Positions 16,433 to 33,278 of a DNA stretch of 64,000 bases are shown one piece after another; within the stretch, counting starts at the first letter, position 1; the number at the start of each line of letters is the position of its first letter. This DNA is from Patescibacteria group bacterium (GTDB taxonomy: Bacteria > Patescibacteriota > Dojkabacteria > GCA-002793355): positions 2,310 through 66,309 of the forward strand of contig BOKM01000001.1 of NCBI GenBank assembly GCA_016860985.1, in the 5' to 3' direction. The notes beneath the pieces were generated by a model. The model did not search any database and had not been told where the DNA came from. It was given only the letters and a program-made list of their open reading frames with translations. The position numbers were made by a program, and so were the translations under genes.

Positions 16433-16888
16433 ATGGAAAACATCAGTATCGTTCAAGCAAATCAAGATGATGCCGAATTACTTCTAGAAATCGAGCAAGC
16501 AACCGAATCAATAACATACTCAACGGTTAAGAATATTTCACAGGCGAAATCATATATTAATAGTGCTAAAATTTTATGGCTCTACAAAAACAACGTAGTA
16601 ATAGGCAAGGTATCATACGTTCTTTCGGAAGATAAGACTGTAGAGATCACTGGGCTTATTATCTTGCCTGCTTACAGAAAAAAGGGGTATGGTAAATACC
16701 TTGTTAAGCATGTTATTGCTCTATTTCCCAACGCTAAAATGAAATTAACCGTTCACCCTGAAAATAATTCTGCAATATCTTTATATTACTCACTAGGTTT
16801 TACCTCTCAAGATACACTAACTAACCCATATGGCGATGGAGAGCCACGATTGCTAATGATTAGGAATCCAGCAACACACCAGAAGTAA
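16433..16888 (+). CDS. GNAT family N-acetyltransferase
   Basis: ILPAYRKKGYGKYLVKHVI is the R/Q-x-x-G-x-G/A acetyl-CoA motif. Length 151 aa. Confidence 0.8.
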   Translation: MENISIVQANQDDAELLLEIEQATESITYSTVKNISQAKSYINSAKILWLYKNNVVIGKVSYVLSEDKTVEITGLIILPAYRKKGYGKYLVKHVIALFPNAKMKLTVHPENNSAISLYYSLGFTSQDTLTNPYGDGEPRLLMIRNPATHQK

Positions 16889-18404
16889 CAAGATACTTTT
16901 TTAATGTGTTTGCCTTCTTCAGAATTTTGTTTGCAATTTCAGTATCCAGCCCTCTTTTTGTGTGAATTGGGCCATTTACCGCACAATAACAAATAGTTTC
17001 GATCATTGCAGCCAAAAATGGTTGATAGTCGGAGTGCGTTGCACCTTCTCCATTATATAAATTCAATGATGCTCCATTGCCTAAAATAGTTAATGTTTTC
17101 CCGTTTGAAAGTTTATAAATTCGAGCGAAGTTATCAATGAAATTTAATTCACTTGACTCATCGAATTTGTGGTACGATTGCTTAATCTCATTAGAGGATA
17201 CAGTTGCAATATACGTGTCCCTTTCAATTTTTGACAGATTATCGTACGTTAGTGCATCCAATCCAGTGCATCCAACAACTAAGACAGGCTTAAACTCTTT
17301 TAACAGATAGACCAGATCTTTCGACACGGGGAAACCATCAGATAATGATTCAAAAACTCGGTAGGGTTCAATATCGCAAACATATACCGCCATGCCGTGA
17401 TTCCTCAAATCCTTCGCAATAACTTTGCCTAATGCTCCGTAACCAACAACTACTGCGATTTGGCTCTGTAAACCTATTTGAGGGATGAGTTCATAGATTC
17501 TATTGGTGATGGAGTGACCAATCACGGGGCTCATCAAGTTCTTTATTTCGGAATCGGCTAAGTTTACTACAGTAATGTCCAGATCTTGTCGTGCATTAAT
17601 TGCGTGCATTCCACCTTTTGTTGTTTCTATAAAACCGCTTGTAATATCCCCGTATTTAGCACCGAACAGGTCGATAACCGTTGTAATCATTAACCCTCCG
17701 TCGTCAAAAACGATTACCTTTTTATTCTCTTTTCGGGCTCTCACAAAGTAAGGATTAAGCTCATTAAATACTCTATCTGCTGACTCGGGTAGTATTGTTT
17801 CGTCTTCGGTTTTACCTGTTGGCGACACTGACTCAAATGGGCTCAAGACAAAGACGCCAATACCCAACGCCTTAAATGATTCCTCAATTCGATAAATATT
17901 TTTACATCTGTCACCCTTAGAGTAATAGACTGTGTTTTCAGGTTTAAGTCCAAGTTTAAACAATTCTTTGAAAACATTAAAGACTGATATTAAGCTATGT
18001 TCCCTGAATATTACAATGGCATTGCTTAATACTTGATCGCGGACGTATTCTTCTGAAACCATTTTACTTAGCAAAGGCGTATATTCGTAAAGTTTTTTTT
18101 CCTCTTCAGGAGAAAACACCTTACTCATAGTCTCAACGTAAGTATGGAGTTCCTCTACGCCTTCAGTATCAACAATCACCTCCATTCGTTTCAAGCCAGT
18201 TTGGTAGTACTCAAGAAATCGTTGGGGAGGCAAAAACTGAAATATAACTCTGATGTTATTTTCACAGGAGACGAAGGAAAGTGAGTTTTTATCATCCTTC
18301 TTCGATACTGGTTGTTTTGCAAATGCTTCCATCCACTCCTTTACGGACAAGATGACACGTGCAAAATAATTATCAGATCCGTAAAACTGGTTATGAGTAA
18401 TCAT
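16860..18404 (-). CDS. adenosylhomocysteinase-family protein (divergent, with an extra N-terminal region of about 130 aa)
   Basis: ETTKGGMHAI (compare ETTTGVHRL) and the NAD-binding stretch VVGYGALGKVIAKDLRNHGMAVYVCDIEPYRVFESLSDGFPV (compare GYGDVGKGCA...TEIDPI...EGFxV of SAHH). Confidence 0.5.
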   Translation of the reverse strand: MITHNQFYGSDNYFARVILSVKEWMEAFAKQPVSKKDDKNSLSFVSCENNIRVIFQFLPPQRFLEYYQTGLKRMEVIVDTEGVEELHTYVETMSKVFSPEEEKKLYEYTPLLSKMVSEEYVRDQVLSNAIVIFREHSLISVFNVFKELFKLGLKPENTVYYSKGDRCKNIYRIEESFKALGIGVFVLSPFESVSPTGKTEDETILPESADRVFNELNPYFVRARKENKKVIVFDDGGLMITTVIDLFGAKYGDITSGFIETTKGGMHAINARQDLDITVVNLADSEIKNLMSPVIGHSITNRIYELIPQIGLQSQIAVVVGYGALGKVIAKDLRNHGMAVYVCDIEPYRVFESLSDGFPVSKDLVYLLKEFKPVLVVGCTGLDALTYDNLSKIERDTYIATVSSNEIKQSYHKFDESSELNFIDNFARIYKLSNGKTLTILGNGASLNLYNGEGATHSDYQPFLAAMIETICYCAVNGPIHTKRGLDTEIANKILKKANTLKKYLVTSGVLLDS

Positions 18405-18490
18405 TGGTAAGGATAGAACTAATTAATCGGGAGGTCAAGAGAAAGAATATCTGGAACCTAAAAATTGATACTGAAGACCCTTTGGTTATA

Positions 18491-18577
18491 GATAGGACTG
18501 ACGGGACTTGAAGCAGCCATTACAATAATGCGGAACTGGAAGGTCTGGTACATGGAATGAGACAGTATAAAAAGGAT
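18491..18577 (+). repeat. copy A (short form) of a conserved noncoding element family (GATAGGACTGACGGGACTTGAAG...AATGCGG...GGTCTGG...GAGACAGTATAAAAAGGA)
   Basis: About 80% identity to 24714-24826 and to the split copy at 47538-47600 plus 47830-47866. Same orientation in all three. Confidence 0.6.
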
Positions 18578-18602
18578 GTCTCAGCGTGTCATTATCCAGA
18601 TA

Positions 18603-19253
18603 TTACCCTTCTACCAAACGCTCAGGAATGAACATTTCTGCATAAACTGGACCACCATGGCTCTTCATTAGTTTCCCAAGAAGGTATGGATGCAAATACT
18701 CTGAAGGAACAATTTGACAGAATGCTTTAATCATTTGGGGATCAATCAATTTCGCATACTTAAAAATAGATAAGACTTTCATTTTTTGCTCAATTTGCTC
18801 ATTGCTCCCAAAGAAAAACATCTTTGGAATAAAGTTGGTCGAATAGGGAGATCTAAAGTAAATAAGGTTTTCAGCAGAACGACTTGCAATATTGACACAC
18901 TTTGCAACGACTTCGTGATCAGTATGGTTGTCTTGCGGGAAATGAGTATAGATAGTATCGGGTTTAAACTCTTCAACAAGTTTTTCTAACTCCTTTTTCA
19001 CTTCCGTTGTATATTTTTCAAGTTCAGAGTCTGGATACTCAGAAAAAGAGTAATCTTTAACTCCCATTAATGTCGCAGCATCTAGAGCTTCCTTTGTCCT
19101 GATTTCTTCATATTCTTTTGCTTTTATCCCGCCTCTCGTTACACAGTGAATCTTTACTTTCGCCCCGTTCTTGATTAAATCTTCAATCTTCATTGACATG
19201 CTGATTTCAGCATCGTCTGGGTGCGCAACAATAATTAGAACTCGTTTTATCAT
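18603..19253 (-). CDS. PIG-L/LmbE-family deacetylase
   Basis: N-terminal VLIIVAHPDDAEI (AHPDD zinc-binding motif) and downstream HxDH-type motif (DNHTDHE). Confidence 0.75.
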   Translation of the reverse strand: MIKRVLIIVAHPDDAEISMSMKIEDLIKNGAKVKIHCVTRGGIKAKEYEEIRTKEALDAATLMGVKDYSFSEYPDSELEKYTTEVKKELEKLVEEFKPDTIYTHFPQDNHTDHEVVAKCVNIASRSAENLIYFRSPYSTNFIPKMFFFGSNEQIEQKMKVLSIFKYAKLIDPQMIKAFCQIVPSEYLHPYLLGKLMKSHGGPVYAEMFIPERLVEG

Positions 19254-19255
19254 TT

Positions 19256-20167
19256 TTAGTAGTTAGTAATCATAAGTTCTGATATAGAGCCTCTACTCGT
19301 CCCCTTAGAGTTAATATTCCTATTTGCGCGTACCTTTTTAATAAAGAATTTTTTGTACAGGGATTCAAAAAAGTTATCATTTATATCTGAATTATGTGGG
19401 TCAGAGTTGCTAAGTATAAGATTTGCGCCAAGATTATCCATTCGCTTGTAATAATCAGCTAAACGTTTTTGATCTTCGTCCGTGAATCCCTCTTTCGAGT
19501 AACTTGTAAAACTTGCTGCCTGCTTTAGTGGACGATATGGAGGATCAAGGTAAATCAAAGTGCCCTTTGTCACATAGTCTTCAGATAGCTGAAAATCTCC
19601 ACAAAGGATAACAGTCTTTTTCAATGACTTACTTACCTCAAATAGATTCTCCTTATCACAAATTTTTGGGTTCACATATCTTCCAAAAGGTACGTTGAAT
19701 TCCCCTTTCTTATTTTGTCTAAACAAACCATTAAAGCAAGTTCGATTAAGAAAGATTATCAACACCGTTCTCTCAATCCAATTAGGATTATAATGTGCAT
19801 AATCTATACCTTTTTGGGTCTCGTTATACAACATTCTCTTCAAATAGAAGAACTTTTCTCTCTCTGTTGAGACAAGACTTAAATACTCCTTCTGAATATT
19901 TTCCAATCTCTCGATAACCTCTTTTACATGAAGCTTTATTGTCTTGTACGCTAACACAAGGTCAGGATTAATATCAATTATTACTGACTTACCAATTTCA
20001 TAATTGTTGTTCAGATAGAAGAAGAAGGAACCACCACCAATAAAAGGCTCAATATATGTGGCAATCTTTTTTGTTTTAGTTACACTATTTGGTAGTCGTG
20101 CAATTAGATCATTCATTAACTGCCTTTTGCCACCTGCCCATTTTAGAAAGGGTTTTGAGTTAATCAT
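19256..20167 (-). CDS. Dam-class (D12) N6-adenine DNA methyltransferase, DpnM/MboIA-like
   Basis: N-terminal FLKWAGGKRQL and catalytic DPPY with EPFIGGGSFFF (AdoMet motif I). Last gene of a three-gene R-M operon on the minus strand. Confidence 0.85.
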   Translation of the reverse strand: MINSKPFLKWAGGKRQLMNDLIARLPNSVTKTKKIATYIEPFIGGGSFFFYLNNNYEIGKSVIIDINPDLVLAYKTIKLHVKEVIERLENIQKEYLSLVSTEREKFFYLKRMLYNETQKGIDYAHYNPNWIERTVLIIFLNRTCFNGLFRQNKKGEFNVPFGRYVNPKICDKENLFEVSKSLKKTVILCGDFQLSEDYVTKGTLIYLDPPYRPLKQAASFTSYSKEGFTDEDQKRLADYYKRMDNLGANLILSNSDPHNSDINDNFFESLYKKFFIKKVRANRNINSKGTSRGSISELMITNY

Positions 20168-20925
20168 TTAATTAAATACCTCGCAGAGTTAAGCAATTTA
20201 ATGCCATTGTATTCATACAGGTCTTTAAACCCAAAGTGCCAAAGATAGTACAAATCCCCTCGCTTCTCAAAAAACAATGTTGTTACCTTCTTGTCTGTAT
20301 GTTCCTGCCATTGTCGATATGGATAGTAAAGCTGTCTAATAATTTCGTTCGAGGTACTTGAGTTTTTTGCCTCAACAAGCACTACTGAATCTCTTCCTTC
20401 ATACCCTGCATCGACCTCAGTTTGTACACTTTGAGTTGAAATTGTTTGAGTTCCAACTTTAAATGAAAATTCCGGTGTATATTTGCGTCCTCGAATCGTT
20501 AAAACCAAAGTAGGATCTTTAGTAAAGGTTCTAATAATACTCGAAGCGTACGTAAAATCTAAATGCTGCATCTCAGAATTCCCAACTTTTGTAGTCTCAA
20601 GGGTAAAATCAAGGATTGATTTATGGATTTCTGGTTCTGAGGTAATATCAGGGATGTCAACGTATCCTTCTCCTTTTATTATTGCATATGTTCCATTTTT
20701 TATCGGCAATAAAAACAATCCAAGTTTTCTAAAAATTTGTGGTCTGGAGTCTCTTGTATCCTGTTTACATAGGATCCTAGGCTCAGTAATCCCATCTGAA
20801 ACAAAATCTTTACAACTCTTTTTTATCTGAGTCGCTGTGATAGTCAGTGGCTCTTTTGAAAAATCATGATTGGTAATTCCAACATCTTCTCCAATCTTAT
20901 CCCACGCTCTATCTCTTGCTGTCAT
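20164..20925 (-). CDS. putative type II restriction endonuclease (candidate DpnII/MboI-like GATC cutter)
   Basis: 253-aa ORF sandwiched between two DNA methyltransferases with 1-4 nt overlaps (translational coupling). Gene order and sizes resemble the DpnII/LlaDCHI three-gene systems. No independent motif confirmation. Confidence 0.4.
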   Translation of the reverse strand: MTARDRAWDKIGEDVGITNHDFSKEPLTITATQIKKSCKDFVSDGITEPRILCKQDTRDSRPQIFRKLGLFLLPIKNGTYAIIKGEGYVDIPDITSEPEIHKSILDFTLETTKVGNSEMQHLDFTYASSIIRTFTKDPTLVLTIRGRKYTPEFSFKVGTQTISTQSVQTEVDAGYEGRDSVVLVEAKNSSTSNEIIRQLYYPYRQWQEHTDKKVTTLFFEKRGDLYYLWHFGFKDLYEYNGIKLLNSARYLIK

Positions 20926-21725
20926 TACGTATATTGTAATATTTTATTGATAAGGGCATGATATCGGGCTTTCGATACAGAAAGATATTCCTCTGACGTA
21001 TCTATTCCAATATACTTTCTTTTCAACCTATTTGCAACAATTCCTGTTGTAGAACTACCACAAAACGGGTCTAATACTAAATCGCCTTCGTTAGTGCTTG
21101 CAAGGATTACCCTCTTAAGTAGTTCTTCGGGCTTTTGTGTAGGGTGCTTTCCCTGAGCTTTATCACTCATTTTTGGAGTACCAATTGACCAAACGGAACG
21201 CATTTGTGTGTTCGGCTTTTTGATAGAATCTTCTTTCCAATCGCCATTTTTCATTTCTTGGTAATTAAACGTGTGCTTAGCTTTTTTCTCTTTTCTCACC
21301 CATAAAAGATTCTCATGACTGGCTGTGAAGAATCTGCAGCTAAGGTTTGGTGCTGCATTAGGCTTAAACCATGTAATATCATTTAAAATGTGAAATCCAA
21401 GTCGTTGAATTGCATAACCTATTTGATATATAGAATGGTACGTACTGCTGACCCAGAGTGTTCCATTTGGTTTCAAGACGCGCTTACAGGACTCAAGCCA
21501 TCTCATATGAAAATCGAAATTCTCGCCCAAACTCCTTCCCATATCCCATTCACCTTTTTTGACTGAAACCATTTTTCCATTTTGACAAGTAAAGCTTCCG
21601 TCAGAAAGAAAGTACGGAGGATCGGCAAATATCATATCAAACGTATTCTCTTTGTACTCGTTCAATACGTCATTACAATCTCCGTGATGCAATGTGAACG
21701 AATTATTCGAATAATACGGAGTCAT
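20925..21725 (-). CDS. beta-class N6/N4 DNA methyltransferase (DpnA-like)
   Basis: FADPPYF (motif IV) precedes VLDPFCGSSTTGIVA (motif I), the circular permutation typical of beta-class amino-methyltransferases. Confidence 0.8.
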   Translation of the reverse strand: MTPYYSNNSFTLHHGDCNDVLNEYKENTFDMIFADPPYFLSDGSFTCQNGKMVSVKKGEWDMGRSLGENFDFHMRWLESCKRVLKPNGTLWVSSTYHSIYQIGYAIQRLGFHILNDITWFKPNAAPNLSCRFFTASHENLLWVRKEKKAKHTFNYQEMKNGDWKEDSIKKPNTQMRSVWSIGTPKMSDKAQGKHPTQKPEELLKRVILASTNEGDLVLDPFCGSSTTGIVANRLKRKYIGIDTSEEYLSVSKARYHALINKILQYT

Positions 21726-21770
21726 GAATCCATTTTATAGGATAAATTATGATTTGGGAAATAATTCAAA

Positions 21771-22421
21771 TTAGGAAATATCACTTTTTTTACGTTCCTC
21801 CAACTGAAGCACTTCTTCTATTTTGACATATTTCACTTTGTTTACATATAAGTAGGCTAGAAGTTCTACAAGCGAATACGTGACAATATTGTCGTACTTA
21901 TTAATTCTATCGATTTGTTTTTCATGAGCGGCAATATTTCCAACAATCCTAATACAGTGGGCCAATTTTTTAATTCTTTGTGGCCATTTTGCTAATCCTA
22001 TCCATTTAGAAAGTGACTTGAATTTTGGTATCTGTACCTTTTGGTCTTTCAGTATTTCTTCAACAATTTTCCGTAACCTAACAGAAAACTGTTCCTGAGA
22101 TCGTTGTTTCAACCTGAATGTTTCAAGGACTAAGTCTCTAACGTGATGCGGAACAGCCTCATCAATTACGATTTCGACTGGATACAGTTGAAACCAGTCG
22201 TCCTTCGTCAGTCTGATCGTTTCGTCTTCAATTGCACCAATATATCCGTCATCTATTGTTTTCAAGATATACCGTGAACATGTTGAACATTTAAGAACAC
22301 AGGTATGCATGTAATTCTCCCAATAGTCATTTGACGATTTCGGAAGAAAAACATCAGTTATATCAACTACAGTACAAAGAGTTCTATTCCCACAGTTGCT
22401 ACAAAACGCTAGTTCTTCCAT
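21771..22421 (-). CDS. DUF4145 domain protein with an N-terminal zinc ribbon
   Basis: C-terminal IRIVGNIAAHEK matches the conserved R-x-x-G-N-x-A-A-H-E motif of DUF4145. N-terminal CSNCGN...C...CSTC. Confidence 0.5.
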   Translation of the reverse strand: MEELAFCSNCGNRTLCTVVDITDVFLPKSSNDYWENYMHTCVLKCSTCSRYILKTIDDGYIGAIEDETIRLTKDDWFQLYPVEIVIDEAVPHHVRDLVLETFRLKQRSQEQFSVRLRKIVEEILKDQKVQIPKFKSLSKWIGLAKWPQRIKKLAHCIRIVGNIAAHEKQIDRINKYDNIVTYSLVELLAYLYVNKVKYVKIEEVLQLEERKKSDIS

Positions 22422-22504
22422 TCTTTATTATACTCTCTGAGTTATTTGTAATAATAATTATCTTGGAACTAGACTTACATCAAGATTCGCGGTACTTGTG
22501 GTGT

Positions 22505-23845
22505 ATGGAAAACACAATAAAAGTACCTGACTTGCGCTACTGCCTCTATGCTCGAAAATCCTCCGAGTCGGACGAAAAGCAGGCGATGAGTATAGACAGC
22601 CAACTTCACGAAATGAGTGATCTAGCAAAGCGAGATAATATAAACATTGTCGATATTATTACAGAAAGCCATTCTGCTAAAGAAACTGGCCAACGACCAC
22701 AGTTTAACCTTATGGTTGAAGGAATTAGTAGTGGAAAGTATAACGGCATCATAACGTGGGCTCCAGATAGAATTTCAAGAAATGCAGGCGACCTTGGACG
22801 GATAGTCGATTTAATGGATCAAGGGAAGCTTTCTCTAATCAAAACACATTCTCAAACCTTTACAAACAACCCTAATGAGAAGTTCCTATTAATGATACTC
22901 TGCTCACAAGCAAAACTGGAAAACGACAATAGGGGAATAAACGTAAAGCGTGGACTAAAGAGTAAATGTCAGACAGGGGTAAGACCAACAATGCCACCTC
23001 TCGGATATATTAATATCATGAGAGCAAATAGAATCTCAACTGTAATACTTGATCCCGAAAAATCCCCAATAATTAAACAAATGTTCGTATATGTCGCGGA
23101 CAAAGGACTTTCAGGAAGAACCATCCGAAAATGGCTAAGAAAAATTGGATTCAAATCAAGAACAGGAAAAGACCTCGTTTTAAGTCTAATCTACAAAATG
23201 CTCAGAAATCCCTTTTATTATGGATATTTTAAATACGGTGAGAAAATATACAAAGGTTCACATGAACCTCTCATATCCAAACAAGTATTTGATAAGGTAC
23301 AAATACAGTTGCAAACAACACCACGACAGTGGAATAAACAGCTCTACCCTTTCAAGAAAATTTGCAAATGTGGAAGTTGTGGTAGTAGTATAACTGCAGA
23401 AACTAAGTTTCGAGTAGTTCAGAATGGGGATGTACATCCTCATATCTATTATCACTGCAATAGAATAAATGACTACGATTGTCATGAACCTTATATAACT
23501 GAAGCTGAACTCATACAGCAACTTGTTGCTCTTATGCCGCAAATCAAACTCGACAAAGAATACATTTGGAACCTATTCCAAGACGAAATCAAACGATTAA
23601 ATCATCTACAACAAATAATGAATCTGAAAAACAGCGTAGCTTTTGAAACAACTCCACATAGGAACATGTCCAAATCCATAAGTGCGATTAGTGAAAGAGA
23701 AACAGAAATGATCAAAGATTACTTCTTACACATTCTGCAGTATGGAACACCGGAAGAAAGGCAGAATGTATTAACAGGAGTTAAGTCAATCTTTATCCTA
23801 AAAGAACGGGAGCTTCGTCTTAAAGGTCAGATTAACGCTTTATGA
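22505..23845 (+). CDS. large serine recombinase (resolvase catalytic domain + recombinase domain + zinc ribbon)
   Basis: N-terminal YCLYARKSSESDEKQAMSIDSQ with the catalytic Ser, central recombinase domain, and CKCGSCGSS...YYHCN zinc ribbon. About 97% aa identity to the copy at 44850-46190. The start is set at MENTIK by comparison with the paralog; the longer ORF from 22331 overlaps the divergent gene. Confidence 0.85.
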   Translation: MENTIKVPDLRYCLYARKSSESDEKQAMSIDSQLHEMSDLAKRDNINIVDIITESHSAKETGQRPQFNLMVEGISSGKYNGIITWAPDRISRNAGDLGRIVDLMDQGKLSLIKTHSQTFTNNPNEKFLLMILCSQAKLENDNRGINVKRGLKSKCQTGVRPTMPPLGYINIMRANRISTVILDPEKSPIIKQMFVYVADKGLSGRTIRKWLRKIGFKSRTGKDLVLSLIYKMLRNPFYYGYFKYGEKIYKGSHEPLISKQVFDKVQIQLQTTPRQWNKQLYPFKKICKCGSCGSSITAETKFRVVQNGDVHPHIYYHCNRINDYDCHEPYITEAELIQQLVALMPQIKLDKEYIWNLFQDEIKRLNHLQQIMNLKNSVAFETTPHRNMSKSISAISERETEMIKDYFLHILQYGTPEERQNVLTGVKSIFILKERELRLKGQINAL

Positions 23846-24605
23846 CAATTTGTTGGAACATATCATCAGTATCATCTTTCCATTGCCCCGACCACGATAG
23901 TTTTAGCTCAATTAGCGAAGGACTAGCATTTTTTGCGTAAACACAAATCTTTAATTTGTAATCACCAGGAGTTAAACAATCCTTTTGGGCAAAAACTATA
24001 TCCTTACTTTCCAAAAAAAACATAGTCTTCTCTTTTTCTTCCGAAGAGTATCCCCTGTACTTTGAGGATGGCTTACACGTAGCAGGATTTGCAATCGAAC
24101 CAATATCAACAAAAAACATATTTCCCGACTGAATTGTCAGTACTCGTATCTCTTGATTATACTTTGCCGACCAGTTAAGAATTATTGGGGTAAAATTCTT
24201 TTCTTCAATAAAATCTCCTGAGCTATCTTTTTTAGAAATGCTTTCTAGGTATGTACTGCAATCTTCAGCTGCAAGCTTTCCTTCATTTTTTACCGCGATT
24301 CTGAAGAAATATACATCGATTCCTAAATCTGTTGTAGTTTTATGACAGAAGGGACTACCAAGTTTGAATAGGATTTTATTTTTTGGGGAGCGAAAAGTGT
24401 ATTTGAAATGTTCCGACATAAGTGGGCCGATAAATGCGACGAGTAGCGCAATAAGGCCAATTGCTATCTGTATGTAATCCGAAACAGATAACATTGATAC
24501 TACTGCAGGAACTAATGTTGGTGTCATCATTAATTGTACATTCTTTCCGACATACATACCAGAATTGTACTGGCATGTACTTTGCGTTCCAAAGCTTAGA
24601 ACCAA
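23832..24605 (-). CDS. hypothetical membrane-anchored protein
   Basis: 257-aa ORF with an N-terminal TM segment (IAIGLIALLVAFIGPLM). Confidence 0.4.
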   Translation of the reverse strand: MVLSFGTQSTCQYNSGMYVGKNVQLMMTPTLVPAVVSMLSVSDYIQIAIGLIALLVAFIGPLMSEHFKYTFRSPKNKILFKLGSPFCHKTTTDLGIDVYFFRIAVKNEGKLAAEDCSTYLESISKKDSSGDFIEEKNFTPIILNWSAKYNQEIRVLTIQSGNMFFVDIGSIANPATCKPSSKYRGYSSEEKEKTMFFLESKDIVFAQKDCLTPGDYKLKICVYAKNASPSLIELKLSWSGQWKDDTDDMFQQIVIKR

Positions 24606-24611
24606 GGAGTA

Positions 24612-24826
24612 TTTATTTTTGCAATTTTTAGATGATTTTGCGTATTACAGGACTACGTTGACACTTTTCCAATTTGGGGTATCCGTAAGTAATGGTAAGT
24701 TGGACATTTCCAGATAGGACTGACGGGACTTGAAGCAACCGTTGCAAAAATGCGGAGCATGTGGGTCTGGCACCGTACAATGGCTGGTTGGTAGAAAAAA
24801 TGAGACAAAAGAGACAGTATAAAAAG
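24612..24826 (+). repeat. copy B (long form, about 215 nt) of the conserved noncoding element, ending in an RBS-like AAAGGA just before the ATG of the next operon
   Basis: 24612-24720 matches 47432-47545 (AAGGAGTATT..TTTTAG....CGTATTACAGGACTACGTT.ACAC.TTTCC...GATAGGACTGACGGGACTTGAAG). The core also matches 18491-18577. Confidence 0.6.
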
Positions 24827-24830
24827 GAAA

Positions 24831-25937
24831 ATGATTTGTCTCAATCTAGAAAAATTGCTTATCACTTATCCACACAATCTGATGAATTTCTGTTATAATC
24901 CACAGCAATATGTAACAATACTATTGCACATGATTCAACCTACAAAGTCTTGGAATAATCCAAATCAACATTATAAGGATGCGCTGACTACTCCTTGGTA
25001 TAAAGTCTTGACTGGCCTACAAAGCGATTTCGTTAATGCGACAGTTTCATTTTATAAAGAAATTGGTTATGATTTTACCCTTCTTCCGATAACTACAGGT
25101 GCTATTTCTAGCCCTATGGGGTTAGGAAGTGACTCGTCACCGGTTCAAGTGAATATTGGAGGTGTCGAGACATATCTTGCCGATTCAATGCAATTCATGC
25201 TTGAGTATGCATGCAGAGTTAGAAAAAATGGATGCTATTATTTGGCACCATCGTTTAGAGGAGAACTTGCAGATGCAAGACACTTATGCCAATTTTATCA
25301 TTCAGAAGCAGAAATAGAAGGTACGATTACGGATGTAATGTCACTTGTAGAGAGATACGTAAAGTACCTTGCACAGTGGTATAAAGATCATAGCAAAAAT
25401 GAACTATTAACTGTAACTGATAATATTTCACATCTGGATACACTTATCAATATTGAAAAGATCCCAACAGTCACTTTCGCTGAAGCAGTCGATATCCTTG
25501 AAAACAATAGCGAATACATTCAAAATCATGGTATTTACCGAACAATTAACCATGCAGGCGAAAAGAAATTAATTGAGAAATATGGCGGATTTGTCTGGTT
25601 AACCCATTTTGATCATCTTGCAGTTCCATTCTATCAGAAGAATACTGATGACACATTTACGACTGCAATTAACGCAGATCTGCTTATGGGAATCGGAGAA
25701 ACAGTTGGCTCTGGTGAGCGACACTTCTCAAGAAGAGAAACAGAGAAAGCACTTGATTTTCATAAGGTGAGTAGAGATCATTACGAATGGTATTTAACAA
25801 TGAAGGAACTTGTACCAATGCAAACATCAGGCTTCGGACTTGGAGTTGAAAGATTCTTGTTATGGTTAACTAATCAAAATGATATTAGAGATATGCAATT
25901 AGTACCAAGATTTAATGGAGAAAAGGAGATACTATGA
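24831..25937 (+). CDS. class II aminoacyl-tRNA-synthetase-like catalytic core without an anticodon-binding domain (AsnRS/AsnA-like amino-acid ligase)
   Basis: Motif 2-like YYLAPSFRGELADARHLCQFYHSEAEIE and motif 3-like SGFGLGVERFLLWLT. No N-terminal OB fold, as in archaeal-type asparagine synthetase A paralogs. Confidence 0.55.
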   Translation: MICLNLEKLLITYPHNLMNFCYNPQQYVTILLHMIQPTKSWNNPNQHYKDALTTPWYKVLTGLQSDFVNATVSFYKEIGYDFTLLPITTGAISSPMGLGSDSSPVQVNIGGVETYLADSMQFMLEYACRVRKNGCYYLAPSFRGELADARHLCQFYHSEAEIEGTITDVMSLVERYVKYLAQWYKDHSKNELLTVTDNISHLDTLINIEKIPTVTFAEAVDILENNSEYIQNHGIYRTINHAGEKKLIEKYGGFVWLTHFDHLAVPFYQKNTDDTFTTAINADLLMGIGETVGSGERHFSRRETEKALDFHKVSRDHYEWYLTMKELVPMQTSGFGLGVERFLLWLTNQNDIRDMQLVPRFNGEKEIL

Positions 25938-26770
25938 AAAAATATACAGTAGAAGAAATAACAAAAATTAATTACACAGATTTTATCTCTTTGATTAAGG
26001 AAACGAATCGTTGCCCTGGAGGTAAAGACACAATTCGAAAGATAGTGCAGAATACTTTCATCGACGAAAACAGTAGGGTTCTCGATGTTGGTTCAAATAC
26101 AGGATTCACGTCTTTAGAACTTTCCCACATTTCAAAAGCAAAAATTTCGGGAATTGATGTTTCAGAAGCATGCGTAAATACTGCTAATGCACTGCTGGCA
26201 ACAGATATCGAAGAAGTGAGAAAAAGAGTCGATTTCCAAGTTGGTAGTGCATACGAGATTCCTTTCGAAAATGATACATTCGATCTTGTTGTAACTGGTG
26301 GTGCGACGTCATTTATGGATAAGAAACAACAGGCAATTTCAGAGTATAAACGAGTACTAAAACCATGGGGGTTTTTGAGTGCAACTCAATTATTCTATAC
26401 AACAAAACCACCCCAAGCTGTGGTTGATGCAGTTTCGAATGCAATTGGCGTCACGATAAATCCATGGTTGGAACAAGACTGGAAAAATGTATTCTTAGAA
26501 ACCCAAGAAAGTGGAGTACTTGAGCTGTATTATTATGAAAAGAACGAACTACAATCAAGGCCAGCTGACGTTATTGAAGAATACATGGAATACTTTATGG
26601 CGAAAGATCACCTAAAAGAATATTCTGAGGATGTTCGTAATGCGATTAGGAAAAAGTGGAAAATGTACATTGATGTATTCAATGAAAATCACAAGTATCT
26701 TGGTTACTTTATTTCATTATTCAGAAAAACTCAGTATCCAGAGGAGCCTGAATTATTTATAAGAAAATGA
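25934..26770 (+). CDS. class I SAM-dependent methyltransferase
   Basis: VLDVGSNTGFTSLEL (motif I) and DLVVTGGA (motif II region). Start overlaps the upstream gene by 4 nt. Confidence 0.7.
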   Translation: MKKYTVEEITKINYTDFISLIKETNRCPGGKDTIRKIVQNTFIDENSRVLDVGSNTGFTSLELSHISKAKISGIDVSEACVNTANALLATDIEEVRKRVDFQVGSAYEIPFENDTFDLVVTGGATSFMDKKQQAISEYKRVLKPWGFLSATQLFYTTKPPQAVVDAVSNAIGVTINPWLEQDWKNVFLETQESGVLELYYYEKNELQSRPADVIEEYMEYFMAKDHLKEYSEDVRNAIRKKWKMYIDVFNENHKYLGYFISLFRKTQYPEEPELFIRK

Positions 26771-26774
26771 TTCA

Positions 26775-27839
26775 GTGAAAGACCGTAACCAAAAATCCAA
26801 AAAAGGACAGAGTAAATCGGGAAAGCCCTTAGAGAAAGCAGACACATTGTTTATAGATAAACATGAAAGGGATACATTTTTACCGTTGCTGAGATATCTG
26901 TATGGGATCGAATTCCAAGACAAAATAGAGTTTGTGTCGTCATTATCTCTTACCTCACGAAAGTGTTTAATTTTCGATAATGAAGGGGTTAAGTATTTTC
27001 TTAAGCGTAAACCAGAGTATTCATTACAAGAACCATTGAGAACAAGAGCTATAAGGCTTCAGTCTCTACTTGCGACAAAAGTTCCCTTTATTCCCCAAAT
27101 CATATTTACAAAGACAGATAATCAACCACTGGGTGTTATTAATAGTAGTCATTATCTGCTTACTAAATATGTAGATGGTCAAATATTTGGAGGTCGGATT
27201 GAACAGTCAATTACGGGTGCATCAAAACTAGGGTTGATGCATAAAATTGCGAATCAAAATCTTGCAGAGGAGTCTTCGCCTGTTGACTCAAATGAGTCAG
27301 TTAAAACATTTATCGGTTACGCCGAGAAAATGAGTTTTTCTGATGCAAAATTGCAGAATGAAGTACTTGATAAAATAAGAAAGAAAGTACAGACATTAAA
27401 ATCCGAGAATAAGGGAAAAATGAGTTGGATTCACTCGGATTTCGCTCCATTTAATCTTGTATTTTCCGGTGACGAGGTCGTTGCCGTTAATGATTTTGAC
27501 AATGCAACGTTTGGTAACATATCTAAAGATGTTGCAGAATGCATTATTTCATTTGCAGATATTAACTATAATGGGGCGACGTCGTTTCTTAACAAGGTGA
27601 TCAGAACCTCAATTGATGAACGCTCTATGGCTAGATTGCTTGAGGCATATATGAATACATCTGAAAGTTCAATTAGTGATTTAACAGATTTACCAAATGA
27701 AATGAGTTTAATGTGGTTAAAATTGATGGTCCTAGGATTGCTTAGAGGTGATTTCGCATTAGAGGATGTTAATGTGGTACTGAATCACGCAGATGATCTT
27801 AATGTGGTAGGAAATGAATTACTACACTCTCTAAAATAG
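26775..27839 (+). CDS. aminoglycoside-phosphotransferase-fold (APH/choline-kinase-like) kinase
   Basis: WIHSDFAPFNLVF...VNDFDNATFGN corresponds to the HxDxxxxN catalytic loop plus the DFD/DFG metal-binding motif of the APH fold. GTG start 5 nt after the upstream stop. Confidence 0.55.
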   Translation: MKDRNQKSKKGQSKSGKPLEKADTLFIDKHERDTFLPLLRYLYGIEFQDKIEFVSSLSLTSRKCLIFDNEGVKYFLKRKPEYSLQEPLRTRAIRLQSLLATKVPFIPQIIFTKTDNQPLGVINSSHYLLTKYVDGQIFGGRIEQSITGASKLGLMHKIANQNLAEESSPVDSNESVKTFIGYAEKMSFSDAKLQNEVLDKIRKKVQTLKSENKGKMSWIHSDFAPFNLVFSGDEVVAVNDFDNATFGNISKDVAECIISFADINYNGATSFLNKVIRTSIDERSMARLLEAYMNTSESSISDLTDLPNEMSLMWLKLMVLGLLRGDFALEDVNVVLNHADDLNVVGNELLHSLK

Positions 27840-27840
27840 T

Positions 27841-28836
27841 ATGCGAGAACTTATCTATCCAACGAAGATGAGAGCAGGTCAAAAGCTAGGTGTTTTTGCA
27901 TCTTCAAGTCCCGCCTTATCATTCCCAAATGCAAATGATTCATACAAGTATATTAATGCAAAAGGCGTAAACGTTTTTGAGCACAAACAATGCAGAATAA
28001 AGAACAGACACACTGCAGGAACGGTGGTTGACAGAGTATCGGCAATTAATGACTTACTGCTCGATAATTCAATTGGTATTCTCATGGCTTATTGGGGAGG
28101 TACAAATACCAATGATTTATTAAAGTATCTTGATTATGAGTTATTTGCTAGATATCCCAAAATAATTATTGGATATTCTGATACAACGGCATTACTTCAG
28201 GCAATAACATCAAAGACAGGATTAGTCACTTTTATGGGGCCAGCCGCAATTACGTTTATTAAACCTGAACCCTTTGAGTATTCTTGGAGTTACTTTTATA
28301 AAATGTGTATTGCACCTGAGGATGAGGTTGTTATTGAAGATTCGCCAGTTTTTGCAGATGACGAATACTTTCTTCGAGAAGATAGTAATCACCGAATAAT
28401 TCGACCAAATTCTGGTCGCCAAGTTTTTAAAGATGGAAATTTCAAAGGGGCGTGCATTGCTAGCAATCTCGAGACTTTATTGGCGTTAGCCGGTACTGAA
28501 TATTTTCCAAATCTCGAAGGGAAAGCCCTTTTTATTGAGGAAAGTGAAGAAGAAAATCTATCAACGGTAAATAGAAATTTTAGGCAATTATCGCAGGTCG
28601 ATGGCTTCGATAAGTTGAGTGCTTTGTTGATAGGAAGGTTTTGCGAAAAGAGTGGATTTTCTGATCAAGATTCTGTCGAAATGATGTTAGAAGATACTCT
28701 AGTAAACACAAACTTTCCTGTTATCTATAATCTTGATTTCGGCCATTCTGATCCATTATTCACTATTCCCAATGGTGGTAGCGTTATTATTGATACAAAA
28801 CAGAAAGTTTTACAATTTTCAAAAGCTGTCGTCTAA
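27841..28836 (+). CDS. S66 peptidase (LD-carboxypeptidase LdcA / microcin-C immunity MccF-like)
   Basis: IIGYSDTTALLQAI (catalytic Ser in G-Y-S-D-x-T-A-L) and C-terminal DFGHSD (His). Start is 2 nt after the kinase stop. Confidence 0.7.
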   Translation: MRELIYPTKMRAGQKLGVFASSSPALSFPNANDSYKYINAKGVNVFEHKQCRIKNRHTAGTVVDRVSAINDLLLDNSIGILMAYWGGTNTNDLLKYLDYELFARYPKIIIGYSDTTALLQAITSKTGLVTFMGPAAITFIKPEPFEYSWSYFYKMCIAPEDEVVIEDSPVFADDEYFLREDSNHRIIRPNSGRQVFKDGNFKGACIASNLETLLALAGTEYFPNLEGKALFIEESEEENLSTVNRNFRQLSQVDGFDKLSALLIGRFCEKSGFSDQDSVEMMLEDTLVNTNFPVIYNLDFGHSDPLFTIPNGGSVIIDTKQKVLQFSKAVV

Positions 28837-29828: not shown

Positions 29829-29829
29829 T

Positions 29830-30276
29830 TTACTTTGTAATCTTTAATCTGATTGCTTCAGCTTTTTCCATACTTGCGAGAATCCAAGGTGGAGTATTTG
29901 GATTTGATTTGATTTCTTCAAATGTCATCCAAGATACTTCATCAACTTCATCCTCTATCATTGCCGATGGATCACCTGATTTGTATTCTGCAATAAAGAC
30001 AATATCAATGACATGGTTGCCTTTAGCACTTACAAACATCTTGCTTTCTACATATTCGAGCTTTTCTTGAACTTGTACGTTAACTTCTTCCAAGATTTCT
30101 CGTTTTACACCAAATTCTAGTGTATCAGTAAGTGCGTCTGAATAATCAACTTTTCCGCCAACCATAGAAAGAGTACCACCTGCATGATCTTCTTTTTTTG
30201 ATCGTAAAATCATGAGCCATTTATTATTTTGAAAAATAGCTGCTTCAACATTTACTATAAATTTTGGAGGTTCCAT
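29830..30276 (-). CDS. NUDIX hydrolase
   Basis: Nudix box GGKVDYSDALTDTLEFGVKREILEEVNV (GX5EX7REUXEEXGU). Confidence 0.8.
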   Translation of the reverse strand: MEPPKFIVNVEAAIFQNNKWLMILRSKKEDHAGGTLSMVGGKVDYSDALTDTLEFGVKREILEEVNVQVQEKLEYVESKMFVSAKGNHVIDIVFIAEYKSGDPSAMIEDEVDEVSWMTFEEIKSNPNTPPWILASMEKAEAIRLKITK

Positions 30277-33275: not shown

Positions 33276-33278
33276 TGT

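What the first reader, a model, noticed from the sequence alone, without database searches (positions are those of the whole stretch)
18405..18602. Sharp boundary between housekeeping-type chromosome and a roughly 45-kb or longer defence/mobile island at element copy A
Upstream of 18.4 kb the genes are transporters, SDR, RecX, GNATs and a phospholipase. Starting immediately after element copy A the content switches to R-M systems, recombinases, ParB-methyltransferases, terminase genes, OLD, helicase-nucleases and many unknowns. The conserved element sits exactly at the transition, consistent with an attachment-site-like boundary.
Basis: partly seen in the sequence, partly recalled or inferred. 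Interest (0 to 1): 0.5.

Follow-up and report, generated by a model that had tools for sequence, protein, structure and literature searches.

The report
Outer att junction of tandem islands
The short conserved sequence at 18.5 kb is the outermost attachment-site junction of at least three serine-integrase mobile elements, stacked head to tail and loaded with anti-phage genes, in a tiny (about 1 Mb) CPR/Patescibacteria genome; the mechanism is a familiar one, seen here in an undescribed element family.

Summary

- **Copies.** The 198-nt intergenic region holds copy A (18491-18582) of an element with exactly three same-strand copies in the window. Copy B is at 24.7 kb and copy C at 47.5 kb. A fourth copy (D) starts about 5.3 kb past the window end.
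- **Elements.** Copies B, C and D each lie 0.7-1.4 kb downstream of a large serine recombinase gene (LSR1-3). The copies delimit three tandem elements: E1 (6.2 kb), E2 (22.8 kb) and E3 (about 22 kb). The array is about 51 kb.
- **Target.** In relatives, the same left arm abuts the 3' end of an intact tRNA (Asp, Ser).
- **Crossover.** Three independent breakpoints confine it to the CGG at 18531-18533.
  - The tRNA starts there in L008 and L009.
  - A 98%-identical strain is 141/141 identical up to that point and 20/59 after it.
  - A metagenome contig's homology to copy B begins exactly at CGG.
- **Flanks.** The left flank is syntenic in two relatives, whereas the right side varies.

Caveats:
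- The intact tRNA-Asp of this genome was not seen.
- Copy A's left arm looks element-derived, so an older eroded element may lie further left.
- The adjacent "SAHH-like" gene is a rare accessory gene, not housekeeping.

This is a new member of a known kind.

The parts
16860..18404 (-). Left-flank gene adjoining copy A. It is a 514-aa protein with an AdoHcyase_NAD-like domain ('SAHH-like') and is a rare accessory gene.
   Evidence: Pfam PF00670 matches residues 312-452 only. NCBIfam ahcY scores far below its cutoff. Only 14 homologues exist in 5.8e9 proteins. The gene occupies the same position next to copy A in L023 and L024.
18491..18530 (+). Copy A left arm ('core'). It comprises the invariant 23-mer GATAGGACTGACGGGACTTGAAG (18491-18513), a 14-nt variable spacer, and ATG.
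   Evidence: The arm is conserved in copies B and C and in L008, L009, L023 and L024. The upstream P-arm block found in B, C and D is absent here (nhmmer).
18531..18533 (.). Inferred strand-exchange trinucleotide CGG. It corresponds to the complement of the tRNA discriminator base plus the first two acceptor-stem bases.
   Evidence: L023 is identical to the window through ATGCGG and then diverges. L037's homology to the copy B right arm starts exactly at the C of CGG. The tRNA begins here in L008, L009 and L027.
18531..18582 (+). Copy A right arm (P' arm of E1). It comprises a tRNA-3'-end-like 25-mer (18531-18555), the box GAGACAGTATAAAAAGGA (18559-18576), and its inverted partner TGTCTC (18577-18582).
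   Evidence: Alignments are. The 25-mer matches the tRNA-Asp 3' end at 13/25 positions without gaps, against about 6 expected by chance. This is a shortened version of the arm seen in copy B, L023, L009-left and L037.
18534..24752 (.). Element E1 (6,222 bp between the crossover points). Gene order:
- PIG-L 18603-19253 (-)
- D12 methyltransferase 19256-20167 (-)
- Type II REase (DUF6996/6997) 20164-20925 (-)
- N4/N6 methyltransferase 20925-21725 (-)
- DUF4145 21771-22421 (-)
- LSR1 22505-23845 (+)
- 257-aa ORF 23832-24605 (-)
   Evidence: Pfam annotation is; PADLOC calls the REase as REase_II. LSR1 is 96% identical to LSR2. A variant E1 is present in L024. The 257-aa ORF has a 64%-identical homologue next to the LSR in L035 and L036.
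24586..24752 (+). Copy B P arm, the right end of E1. It comprises the palindrome GTTCCAAAGCTTAGAAC, the conserved block ...CGTATTACAGGACTACGTTGACAC..., a variable stretch, and the core (24713-24752).
   Evidence: Self-blastn matches 24586-24773 to 47409-47595. The nhmmer P-arm model gives E = 7e-39. The same arm abuts tRNA genes in L008, L009, L020, L027 and L038.
24753..24828 (+). Copy B P' arm, the left end of E2. It begins with the CGG crossover, continues as the tRNA-like GCATGTGGGTCTGGCACC..., and ends with the box at 24811-24828, directly ahead of the ATG of the AsnA-like gene.
   Evidence: This arm is 90-95% identical to the right arms of L023, L009-left and L037.
24753..47574 (.). Element E2 (22,822 bp). 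Gene order:
- AsnA-like, methyltransferase, APH kinase, S66 peptidase
- NUDIX, HD, AAA_16
- ParB-methyltransferase 33328-34656
- TerS-like 34653-35036
- Type IIG/ISP-C R-M 35079-38147
- DSPc, DUF2779
- helicase-nuclease 40301-44719
- LSR2 44850-46190
- 142-aa ORF (-), DUF805
   Evidence: The same strain yields the 100%-identical contig L025, which starts at core B. L010 is 97.5% identical over 37603-46111 and has the same gene order.
47407..47866 (+). Copy C, spanning both arms.
- P arm of E2: 47407-47574 (core 47535-47574).
- Crossover CGG: 47575-47577.
- P' arm of E3: starts at 47575, is interrupted by a 54-aa membrane ORF (47647-47811), and ends with the box at 47849-47866.
47575..64000. 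Element E3, which runs off the window. Genes inside the window:
- unknown ORFs, DUF6994, DUF2321
- PD-Lambda-3-like 53281-53967
- Old/GajA-like 53960-55960 (-)
- ParB-methyltransferase 56133-57479
- TerS 57386-57874
- TerL 57861-59312
- Type ISP R-M, from 59377 onward

Beyond the window: PIF1 helicase, DUF2779, LSR3, HARE-HTH (-), and P-arm copy D at window-equivalent 69257-69344.
   Evidence: L026 is 100% identical to 49377-64000 and extends 5.3 kb further.

Best explanation
Copy A is the tRNA-distal outer junction of a tandem array of at least three integrative elements, E1, E2 and E3. All belong to one family that is widespread in Patescibacteria. Each element is mobilised by a large serine recombinase (LSR) encoded near its right end.

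**Element ends.** Every element finishes on the right with a conserved P arm of about 190 nt: a palindrome, a conserved block, a variable stretch, and a 40-nt 'core' ending ...AAAATG. Every element begins on the left with a conserved P' arm of about 75 nt: CGG, then a sequence resembling the tRNA acceptor/T-arm, then a GAGACAGTATAAAAAGG box.

**Recombination (inferred).** The LSR recombines attP (P-CGG-P') with the extreme 3' terminus of a tRNA gene. This is tRNA-Asp in this lineage and tRNA-Ser in others. The crossover falls within CGG, which corresponds to the discriminator base plus two acceptor bases, so the tRNA stays intact.

**Array formation (inferred).** Repeated integrations at the same site stack elements. 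Older ones are pushed away from the tRNA and decay.
- E1 has lost its ParB-methyltransferase/terminase module.
- E2 has lost TerL.
- E3 is the most complete.

Junctions B and C therefore read P-CGG-P', and junction A is the last junction before the syntenic chromosome. The elements carry mostly anti-phage cargo.

**Shown:**
- the repeats and their arms;
- the adjacency of each P arm to an LSR;
- tRNA adjacency in relatives;
- the breakpoint position;
- strain-level variability to the right of A and synteny to its left;
- the continuation of E3 to LSR3 and copy D.

**Inferred:**
- the LSR catalyses these events;
- an intact tRNA-Asp follows copy D in this genome;
- the order of accretion.
For: 1. 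**Copy number.** There are three same-strand copies with profile E-values from 1e-16 to 1e-21 and no others.
2. **LSR linkage.** LSR1 and LSR2 are 96% identical, and each lies 0.7-1.4 kb upstream of a P arm. I predicted LSR3 and a fourth P arm in my note, then found them beyond the window on L026, a contig 100% identical to the window.
3. **tRNA adjacency.** The P arm abuts the 3' end of an intact tRNA on the opposite strand in several relatives.
   - L008 and L009: tRNA-Asp.
   - L020: tRNA-Ser GGA.
   - L038 and L039: tRNA-Ser GCT, with the LSR on the same contig in L038.
   - L027: a 3' half of a tRNA, with an 82%-identical LSR on the same contig.
   - L017: tRNA-Ser lies at the border between the LSR-side end and housekeeping genes.
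4. **Breakpoint.** L023 matches copy A at 141/141 positions up to ATGCGG and 20/59 afterwards, and matches the copy B right arm at 53/59. L037's homology to copy B starts exactly at CGG, next to an unrelated left arm.
5. **Flank synteny.** The left flank is syntenic in L023 and L024, while E1 is remodelled in L024 and the array in L009 is tiny.
6. **Family module.** The order ParB-methyltransferase, TerS, TerL, LSR is conserved in distant relatives. TerL matches phrog_38 at E = 4e-83 and the LSR matches phage integrase phrog_95.
7. **Precedent.** Tandem arrays formed by re-use of regenerated att sites, and decay of older elements carrying partial tRNAs, are established behaviour (PMC7192596 section 22; bioRxiv 10.1101/2020.12.28.424599).
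Against: - **No tRNA in the window.** The window has no tRNA gene. The source genome's tRNA-Asp was never seen, because L026 ends inside copy D.
- **No direct proof of mobility.** No excised circle and no truly empty attB was recovered.
- **L023 is short.** It ends 59 nt past the crossover, so it cannot show whether E1 is absent or simply different.
- **Copy A's left arm is P-arm-like.** It contains the core, as element right ends do. A could therefore be an internal junction next to an eroded older element.
- **Atypical for LSRs.** LSR att sites normally share only a few bases and span about 40-50 bp. Here both arms are long and conserved. Integration of a second element into an attL- or attR-type site is also not standard LSR behaviour.
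- **E1 is partly old.** Its two methyltransferases are syntenic with L024 at 72-84% nt identity, so that part of the 'island' is old rather than recently acquired.
Confidence: 0.8

Rival explanations
1. Copy A is not the true chromosome/island border. It would be an internal junction whose left arm is the last relic of an older, almost fully eroded element E0. Part of the 'housekeeping' flank (the SAHH-like gene, the GNATs and others, possibly back to about 5.8 kb) would then be old island cargo.
For: - The core is element-borne. It occurs at the LSR-side end of elements that target different tRNAs (L020, L027, L038), yet copy A's left arm contains it, with the 23-mer intact.
- The adjoining SAHH-like gene is very rare, with 14 homologues. 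It sits on the minus strand where other elements carry a variable minus-strand gene between the LSR and the P arm.
- In L009 the DUF1801 homologue lies about 0.8 kb from the outermost copy. In the window it lies 12.6 kb away.
- The left flank shows gene gain and loss between the window, L023 and L024.
Against: - Nothing to the left of the core matches the P-arm model.
- No further att copy occurs in 1-18.4 kb.
- tblastn finds no LSR, TerL, TerS or ParB remnants there.
- The backbone (GNATs, DUF2200, RecX, a 270-aa ORF, EamA) is syntenic in L023 and L024.
- GC content is higher on the left (0.391 against 0.363).
Confidence: 0.3
2. The repeats are not recombination sites. They would instead be a reiterated regulatory leader or a small structured RNA (a promoter or 5'-UTR module) that travels with cargo operons, and the boundary would be coincidental.
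For: - The box GAGACAGTATAAAAAGGA sits directly before the ATG of the AsnA-like gene in copy B and resembles a -10 element plus a Shine-Dalgarno sequence.
- A sigma-70-like match on the minus strand overlaps the box.
Against: - There is no Rfam match, even at E <= 1.
- Folding z-scores range from -0.83 to +0.63 on both strands.
- The count of promoter-like sites is no higher than in shuffled sequence.
- Copies A and C are not followed by a plus-strand gene.
- This reading cannot explain the exact abutment to tRNA 3' ends, the LSR linkage, or the strain breakpoints at CGG.
Confidence: 0.04
3. The region is a single large composite prophage or island whose internal repeats arose by segmental duplication. 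The LSR and ParB-methyltransferase modules would have been copied internally, rather than arriving through separate integration events.
For: LSR1 and LSR2 are 91% identical at the nucleotide level, and the ParB-methyltransferase/TerS modules are 73% identical. Both could be read as internal duplications.
Against: - Homology between the units is confined to hallmark modules and to the arms, while the cargo is entirely different.
- LSR3 is only 77% identical to LSR2.
- E2's right part occurs with a different LSR-to-P-arm spacer gene in L010.
- P' arms of the same type join different cargo in L009, L037 and the window.
- Each unit has the complete P ... P' end structure seen in single-copy relatives next to tRNAs.
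Confidence: 0.06

Closest known systems
Tandem arrays of integrative genetic elements (genomic islands) at tRNA genes, as catalogued by Islander/TIGER (Mageeney et al. 2020, PMC7192596)
   Same: - The elements integrate site-specifically at the 3' end of a tRNA gene.
- The integrase gene lies at one end of each element.
- att-derived direct repeats delimit each unit.
- Re-use of regenerated sites produces arrays of diverse neighbouring elements.
   Different: - Here the integrase is a large serine recombinase. By my own recollection, tRNA targets are typical of tyrosine integrases; I did not verify this in the papers read.
- The crossover lies at the very last bases of the tRNA rather than inside it.
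- Both arms carry long conserved sequence (about 190 nt and 75 nt), not a short identity block.
Tycheposons of Prochlorococcus (Hackl et al., bioRxiv 10.1101/2020.12.28.424599)
   Same: - The host genome is streamlined.
- The elements target tRNA genes.
[quoted passage not shown]
- Degenerate remnants and partial tRNAs persist in the array.
- Some members carry defence cargo or are satellite-like with TerS.
- A minority of elements in that screen carry a large serine recombinase.
   Different: - 910 of 937 elements in that screen use tyrosine recombinases, and tycheposons are defined partly by replication modules (primase/helicase).
- The elements here carry ParB-methyltransferase, TerS and TerL. 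No primase was found.
- The host phylum is different (Patescibacteria).
Large serine phage integrases (phiC31, Bxb1, A118 type)
   Same: - The domain architecture is the same: Resolvase, Recombinase and Zn_ribbon_recom.
- The best PHROG match is a phage integrase family, phrog_95.
- The integrase gene is adjacent to the att site.
   Different: - By my own knowledge, characterised LSRs mostly target protein-coding genes or intergenic sites and use minimal att sites of about 40-50 bp.
- Here the target is a tRNA terminus and the arms are long.
- No recombination directionality factor was identified.
Phage satellites (PICI-like) and defective prophages
   Same: - The elements are integrated.
- They carry packaging genes (TerS, TerL) and an integrase, plus defence cargo.
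- No capsid, portal or tail genes were detected in E3.
   Different: - PICIs usually carry TerS or capsid genes, a repressor and a replication module, not a full TerS and TerL pair.
- Several ORFs here remain unannotated, so hidden structural genes cannot be excluded.
- No helper phage is known.

Membership tests
tRNA-targeting integrative genetic element / genomic island | A site-specific recombinase gene lies near one end of the element. | tested here: met
   LSR1 (22505-23845) and LSR2 (44850-46190) lie 0.7-1.4 kb from P arms B and C. LSR3 lies about 0.8 kb from copy D.
tRNA-targeting integrative genetic element / genomic island | The element is flanked by direct att repeats. | tested here: met
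   Copies A, B, C and D are all on the same strand (profile E from 1e-16 to 1e-21). They delimit units of 6.2, 22.8 and about 22 kb.
tRNA-targeting integrative genetic element / genomic island | One end abuts the target tRNA gene and leaves it intact. | tested here: inconclusive
   This is met in relatives: L008, L009, L020 and L038 show an intact tRNA-Asp or tRNA-Ser abutting the P arm. It could not be seen in the source genome, because the window has no tRNA and L026 ends inside copy D.
tRNA-targeting integrative genetic element / genomic island | Presence or content varies between related genomes while the flank stays conserved. | tested here: met
   The L023 chimera breaks at CGG. L024 has a remodelled E1, and L009 has a 2.5-kb array. 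The left flank is syntenic in L023 and L024.
tRNA-targeting integrative genetic element / genomic island | An excised circular form or an empty attB can be demonstrated. | not testable with these tools
   This needs raw reads or PCR. Only assembled contigs were available, and they break at the repeats.
Large serine recombinase (serine integrase) | An N-terminal resolvase catalytic domain is followed by a Recombinase domain and a zinc-ribbon domain. | tested here: met
   PF00239, PF07508 and PF13408 are found in both LSRs. The N-terminal stretch YCLYARKSSESDEKQ is visible in the alignment, and I take it to hold the catalytic serine. The best PHROG is the integrase family phrog_95, E = 1.5e-65.
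Large serine recombinase (serine integrase) | Recombination occurs at a 2-bp crossover within short att sites that have little attP/attB identity. | tested here: inconclusive
   The breakpoint is confined to the 3 nt CGG, which is compatible with a dinucleotide crossover. However, both arms are long and conserved, and P' resembles the tRNA end at 12-16 of 25 positions. Catalysis was not tested.
Tycheposon | The element carries a replication module (primase/polymerase/helicase) alongside its integrase, as reported for many tycheposons. | tested here: not met
   No primase or polymerase was detected in E1-E3 by Pfam, PHROGs or PADLOC. The only helicases are PIF1-type or defence-type.
Intact temperate prophage | Capsid, portal, tail and lysis genes are present. 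| tested here: not met
   Only TerS and TerL were detected. The ORFs of E3 that were scanned give no structural hits. Unannotated ORFs remain, so this is absence of evidence.
Structured non-coding RNA / riboswitch | The sequence matches a covariance model or folds more stably than expected. | tested here: not met
   Rfam finds nothing at gathering thresholds or at E <= 1. Folding z-scores range from -0.83 to +0.63.

The most novel reading that the evidence does not exclude
The window samples an undescribed family of integrative elements that is very widespread in Patescibacteria.

**Family features.**
- A ParB-methyltransferase, TerS, TerL, LSR backbone.
- Integration at the last nucleotides of tRNA genes.
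- A P' arm that mimics the tRNA acceptor/T-arm.

**Proposed consequence.** The mimicry would make each integration regenerate a usable target. The elements could then accrete serially into defence arrays. Here the array is about 51 kb, roughly 5% of a 1.05-Mb genome. This would be a major and previously unrecognised route by which ultra-small CPR genomes acquire and exchange anti-phage systems. It would also provide a ready-made integrase and att toolkit for these genetically intractable bacteria.
Probability: 0.4. Interest if true: 0.6.

Novelty: new member of a known kind. Interest (0 to 1): 0.42.

Why it matters
**Defence islands in a CPR genome.** CPR/Patescibacteria have genomes of about 1 Mb, rarely carry CRISPR (PMC6509639), and their mobile elements are poorly characterised. 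This locus shows a single tRNA-linked hotspot holding three stacked serine-integrase elements packed with anti-phage systems. These include Type II, IIG and ISP restriction-modification, an Old/GajA-like protein, a PD-Lambda-3-like protein and an Hhe-like helicase-nuclease. The array amounts to about 5% of the genome.

**A precise att definition.** The analysis defines the att architecture to within 3 nt of the crossover, using natural variants only.

**Possible uses.**
- If the LSR is active, the P-CGG-P' and tRNA-3'-end pair is a candidate site-specific integration system for CPR bacteria.
- For genome annotation, the conserved P and P' arms are practical markers for delimiting such islands in fragmented CPR assemblies. 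Those assemblies visibly break at these repeats.

Tried and rejected
**Leads that gave nothing**
- Rfam found nothing for the window or for the element, either at gathering thresholds or at E <= 1.
- RNA folding of the copies gave no signal on either strand.
- The promoter/terminator scan found no more sites than in shuffled sequence.
- The first metagenome scan with the core pattern returned nothing, as did the viral-contig scan.
- Seven of the nine genome hits to the 19-mer were chance matches in high-GC or unrelated genomes.

**Look-ups that failed**
- Exact-protein look-ups of source-genome proteins mostly failed, because the NCBI genome is not indexed. The window could be extended only through the 100%-identical Logan contigs L025 and L026.

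**Models considered and rejected**
- 'Model 1' proposed that each element begins at the LSR gene, because LSR1/LSR2 homology starts only 37 nt upstream of the ATG. I rejected it for three reasons.
  - L010 is contiguous across the helicase-nuclease to LSR2 junction.
  - Relatives place the LSR at the tRNA-proximal end.
  - The breakpoints map to CGG.
- By eye, the 45 nt left of core A resemble the P-arm variable region. A profile does not support this.

**Searches that were uninformative**
- A search for distal tRNA-fragment repeats in L017 and L020 within 10 kb found nothing convincing.
- TerL relatives in IMG/VR and in GenBank phages are too distant (at most 43% and 27% identity) to show whether intact phage versions exist.
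- tblastn for hallmark-gene remnants in the left flank found none.
Full report
**1. What is at the coordinates**

Region 18405-18602 is the 198-nt gap between two minus-strand ORFs. One is a 514-aa AdoHcyase_NAD-like ORF (16860-18404). The other is a PIG-L deacetylase ORF (18603-19253).

The gap carries a conserved sequence that recurs twice more on the same strand (blastn; alignment). Exact landmarks are:

| Feature | Copy A | Copy B | Copy C |
|---|---|---|---|
| Invariant 23-mer GATAGGACTGACGGGACTTGAAG | 18491-18513 | 24713-24735 | 47535-47557 |
| ATGCGG (after a 14-nt variable spacer) | 18528-18533 | 24750-24755 | 47572-47577 |
| Box G(A/G)GACAGTATAAAAA... | 18559 | 24811 | 47849 |

After ATGCGG comes a right arm of the form GCAYGTGRGTCTGGMAC, and then the box. 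Copies B and C also share about 125 nt upstream of the core (24586-24712 and 47407-47534).

A profile of eight copies finds exactly three hits in the window, at E = 1.8e-18, 4.7e-21 and 6.7e-16. Nothing else scores better than E = 2. The window has no tRNA and no Rfam family.

**2. Gene content on either side**

- **Left of copy A:** FtsX, DUF1295, DUF2177, patatin, DUF1801, DUF5680, SDR, a PD-(D/E)XK protein, OpgC, EamA, RecX, DUF2200, an abhydrolase, two GNATs and the AdoHcyase_NAD-like protein.
- **Right of copy A:**
  - a Type II R-M system (D12 methyltransferase, a DUF6996/6997 protein called REase_II by PADLOC, and an N4/N6 methyltransferase);
  - DUF4145;
  - a large serine recombinase;
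  - an AsnA-like, methyltransferase, kinase, S66 peptidase block;
  - ParB-methyltransferase and TerS;
  - a Type IIG enzyme;
  - an Hhe/PDC-S37-like helicase-nuclease;
  - a second serine recombinase;
  - a PD-Lambda-3-like protein and an Old/GajA-like protein;
  - a second ParB-methyltransferase with TerS and TerL (phrog_38, E = 4e-83);
  - a 1614-aa Type ISP enzyme.

GC content falls from 0.391 to 0.363.

**3. The repeats track serine recombinases**

LSR1 (real start 22505) and LSR2 (44850-46190) are 96% identical in protein and 91% in DNA. Each lies 0.7-1.4 kb upstream of copy B or copy C, separated from it by a variable small gene. A ParB-methyltransferase/TerS module is also duplicated, at 73% nt identity.

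I first considered that each element might begin at its LSR gene, because LSR homology starts only 37 nt upstream of the ATG. That model was abandoned on the evidence in section 4.

**4. Relatives show that the repeats are att arms at tRNA 3' ends**

A scan of species-representative genomes with the core 19-mer gave two real hits:
- L009, a complete Candidatus Dojkabacteria genome;
- L008, a MAG labelled Saccharibacteria.

In both, the core lies directly 3' of an intact tRNA-Asp(GTC) on the opposite strand. L009 has three copies:
- one abutting the tRNA;
- one abutting a degenerate 30-nt fragment of the tRNA-Asp 3' end;
- one with a truncated core and a B-type right arm, followed by a PIG-L homologue (81% nt identity).

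The LSR family is very large in Patescibacteria. In distant members the gene order is defence cargo, ParB-methyltransferase, small ORF, TerL, LSR, then one to four small genes, then a minus-strand tRNA-Ser, then housekeeping genes (L017 and L020).

The sequence abutting the tRNA in these relatives is homologous to our upstream block and core:
- in L020, next to tRNA-Ser;
- in L038, where a 69%-identical LSR, the P arm and an intact tRNA-Ser(GCT) lie on one contig;
- in L027, where an 82%-identical LSR, the P arm, the core ending ...AAAATGCGG and a tRNA 3' half lie on one contig.

So the upstream block plus core is the conserved LSR-side end of the element (the P arm), whichever tRNA is targeted. 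The right arm plus box is the opposite end (the P' arm). It recurs at 90-95% identity joined to different cargo in the window, L009, L023 and L037. Copies B and C are thus P-CGG-P' junctions between neighbouring elements.

**5. Where the crossover is**

Three independent lines converge.
- **tRNA start.** In L008, L009 and L027 the tRNA begins at the CGG of ATGCGG. C is the complement of the discriminator base, and GG is the start of the acceptor stem.
- **L023.** This contig from another sample is 98.15% identical to window 10194-18533. It is identical to the window at 141/141 positions up to and including ATGCGG, then at only 20/59. Those 59 nt match copy B's right arm at 53/59.
- **L037.** Its homology to copy B's right arm (94.7% over 75 nt) begins exactly at the C of CGG, and it follows an unrelated left arm.

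Strand exchange is therefore confined to CGG: 18531-18533, 24753-24755 and 47575-47577. This leaves the tRNA sequence unchanged on integration. The first 25 nt of the P' arms match the tRNA-Asp 3' end at 12-16 positions without gaps, against about 6 expected by chance. This fits both arms being read by the same recombinase half-site. That last step is inference.

**6. Extent and structure of the array**

- E1 spans 6,222 bp and E2 spans 22,822 bp between crossover points.
- L025 and L026 come from sample DRR258782 and are 100% identical to window 24711-35937 and 49377-64000, so they represent the same strain.
- L026 extends 5.3 kb beyond the window. After the Type ISP gene come a PIF1 helicase, DUF2779, LSR3 (77% identical to LSR2), a minus-strand HARE-HTH gene, and a fourth P arm at window-equivalent 69257-69344, where the contig stops. 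I had predicted LSR3 beyond the window in my note.
- The L026 tail is nearly identical to the flank that abuts tRNA-Asp in L008. An intact tRNA-Asp at about 69.5 kb is therefore inferred but not seen.

The array is about 51 kb, roughly 5% of the 1,051,512-bp contig that carries these proteins.

The degree of decay fits accretion at the tRNA, with older units pushed outward:
- E3 keeps ParB-methyltransferase, TerS and TerL;
- E2 has lost TerL;
- E1 has lost the whole module, and in L024 it has also lost its LSR apart from a 78-nt remnant.

The same behaviour is described for tandem IGE arrays (PMC7192596, section 22) and for tycheposons (bioRxiv 10.1101/2020.12.28.424599).

**7. Is copy A the island boundary?**

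*Evidence for:*
- L023 and L024 share the left-flank backbone: the SAHH-like gene, GNATs, DUF2200, RecX, a 270-aa ORF and EamA. Both have copy A at the same place.
- Content to the right of A differs. L023 has a different arm. L024 lacks PIG-L, has DpnII instead of the DUF6996/6997 nuclease, has AIPR instead of DUF4145, and has lost its LSR. L009's array is only 2.5 kb.
- There are no further att copies, no P-arm homology, and no hallmark-gene remnants to the left of A.

*Caveats:*
- Copy A's left arm contains the element-type core, so A may be a junction with a nearly erased older element.
- The adjoining SAHH-like gene has only 14 homologues in 5.8 billion proteins.
- In L009 the DUF1801 homologue lies 0.8 kb from the outermost copy, against 12.6 kb in the window.
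- E1's two methyltransferases are syntenic with L024 at 72-84% nt identity, so E1 is old.

I rate 'A is the outermost detectable att junction of the array' at about 0.8. I rate 'the primordial border lies further left' at about 0.3. The two are not exclusive.

**8. Rivals**

- **Structured RNA or regulatory leader.** Not supported. There is no Rfam hit at E <= 1, folding z-scores range from -0.83 to +0.63, and promoter-like matches are at chance level.
- **Internal duplication within one large prophage.** Disfavoured. Only the hallmark modules and the arms are shared, LSR3 is divergent, and each unit has the full end structure seen in single-copy relatives.

**9. Comparison with what is known, and novelty**

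Mechanistically this is the familiar pattern of integrative elements stacked at a tRNA gene. The less usual features are:
- a large serine recombinase, rather than a tyrosine integrase, as the tRNA-targeting enzyme;
- a crossover at the terminal bases of the tRNA;
- long conserved arms;
- a ParB-methyltransferase/TerS/TerL backbone with no detectable structural genes, which could mean either a satellite-like element or a defective prophage;
- a CPR host.

TerL is at most 27% identical to TerL of known phages. No paper describing this family turned up in three literature searches, although that search was limited.

I classify it as a new member of a known kind, of moderate interest. The finding itself (an island boundary with an att-like repeat) is ordinary genomics, correctly spotted. 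Its value lies in the precise att definition and in what it shows about how minimal CPR genomes host defence islands.

Noticed in passing
window 24831-28836: The first genes of E2, directly behind the copy B box, form an odd block. It comprises an AsnA-like class II aaRS-core paralogue (below the NCBIfam cutoff), a SAM methyltransferase, an APH-family kinase and an S66 LD-carboxypeptidase (the MccF family). It could be plain metabolic cargo or a small-molecule/immunity cassette.
   Followed up: partly
window 16860-18404: The 'SAHH-like' protein matches only the NAD-binding domain of adenosylhomocysteinase (residues 312-452). It has just 14 homologues among 5.8 billion proteins and its function is unknown. 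It is always found next to copy A in the three genomes that have it.
   Followed up: partly
window 47647-47811: A 54-aa glycine-rich, probably membrane ORF (MKDNSVKKFLILVGVGAVIGYG...) is inserted inside copy C, between the tRNA-like part of the P' arm and its box. Copies A and B lack it.
   Followed up: no
window 24816-24844 (minus strand): A sigma-70-like match (TTGAGA, 17-nt spacer, TATACT) overlaps the P' box and its inverted repeat, and points leftward across the junction. After circularisation, or in tandem arrays, it would read into the P arm and the minus-strand gene next to the LSR. It is only a consensus match at chance frequency.
   Followed up: no
window 18499-18518 and equivalents; L009 4311-4333: The core itself (TGACGGGACTTGAAGCAACC) is a direct, not inverted, near-copy of the tRNA-Asp T-arm/acceptor 3' half (TGACGGGACTCGAACCCGCAACC). 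It looks like a fossil tRNA fragment captured into the element's P arm. Yet the 23-mer is perfectly conserved in copies A, B and C, which suggests it still has a function.
   Followed up: partly
L027 15198-15313 (also L035 5023-5138): A solo P arm abuts tRNA-Ser(CGA), with no LSR or element beside it; an EamA gene is the neighbour. It is either a remnant of a lost element or a sign that the P arm is retained as the tRNA's 3' flank.
   Followed up: no
L037 6861-7264: A Ser-type P arm is joined to a degenerate tRNA-Ser 3' fragment. About 165 nt further on lies an Asp/B-type P' arm with an unrelated left arm. This is a composite scar of elements with different tRNA specificities at one locus.
   Followed up: partly
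L010, L023, L024, L025, L026 contig ends: Short-read (Logan) contigs from several samples end systematically inside the P arm or the core. These repeats fragment CPR assemblies and will hide such arrays in MAGs.
   Followed up: partly
window 9123-10199: The OpgC-family acyltransferase gene is absent from the otherwise 93-98% identical strain L023, where the PD-(D/E)XK gene sits directly next to EamA. This is a strain-level indel in the 'backbone' flank.
   Followed up: no
L020 12527-12719: Two adjacent tRNA-Ser(GGA) genes (84% identical over 69 nt) lie at the element border. This may be a duplication linked to integration.
   Followed up: no
window 38666-40108 and L026 16279-17721: DUF2779 (RNase H-like) proteins occur in both E2 and E3 at 68.5% nt identity, each just upstream of the region leading to the LSR. 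This may be another semi-conserved backbone gene of the family.
   Followed up: no
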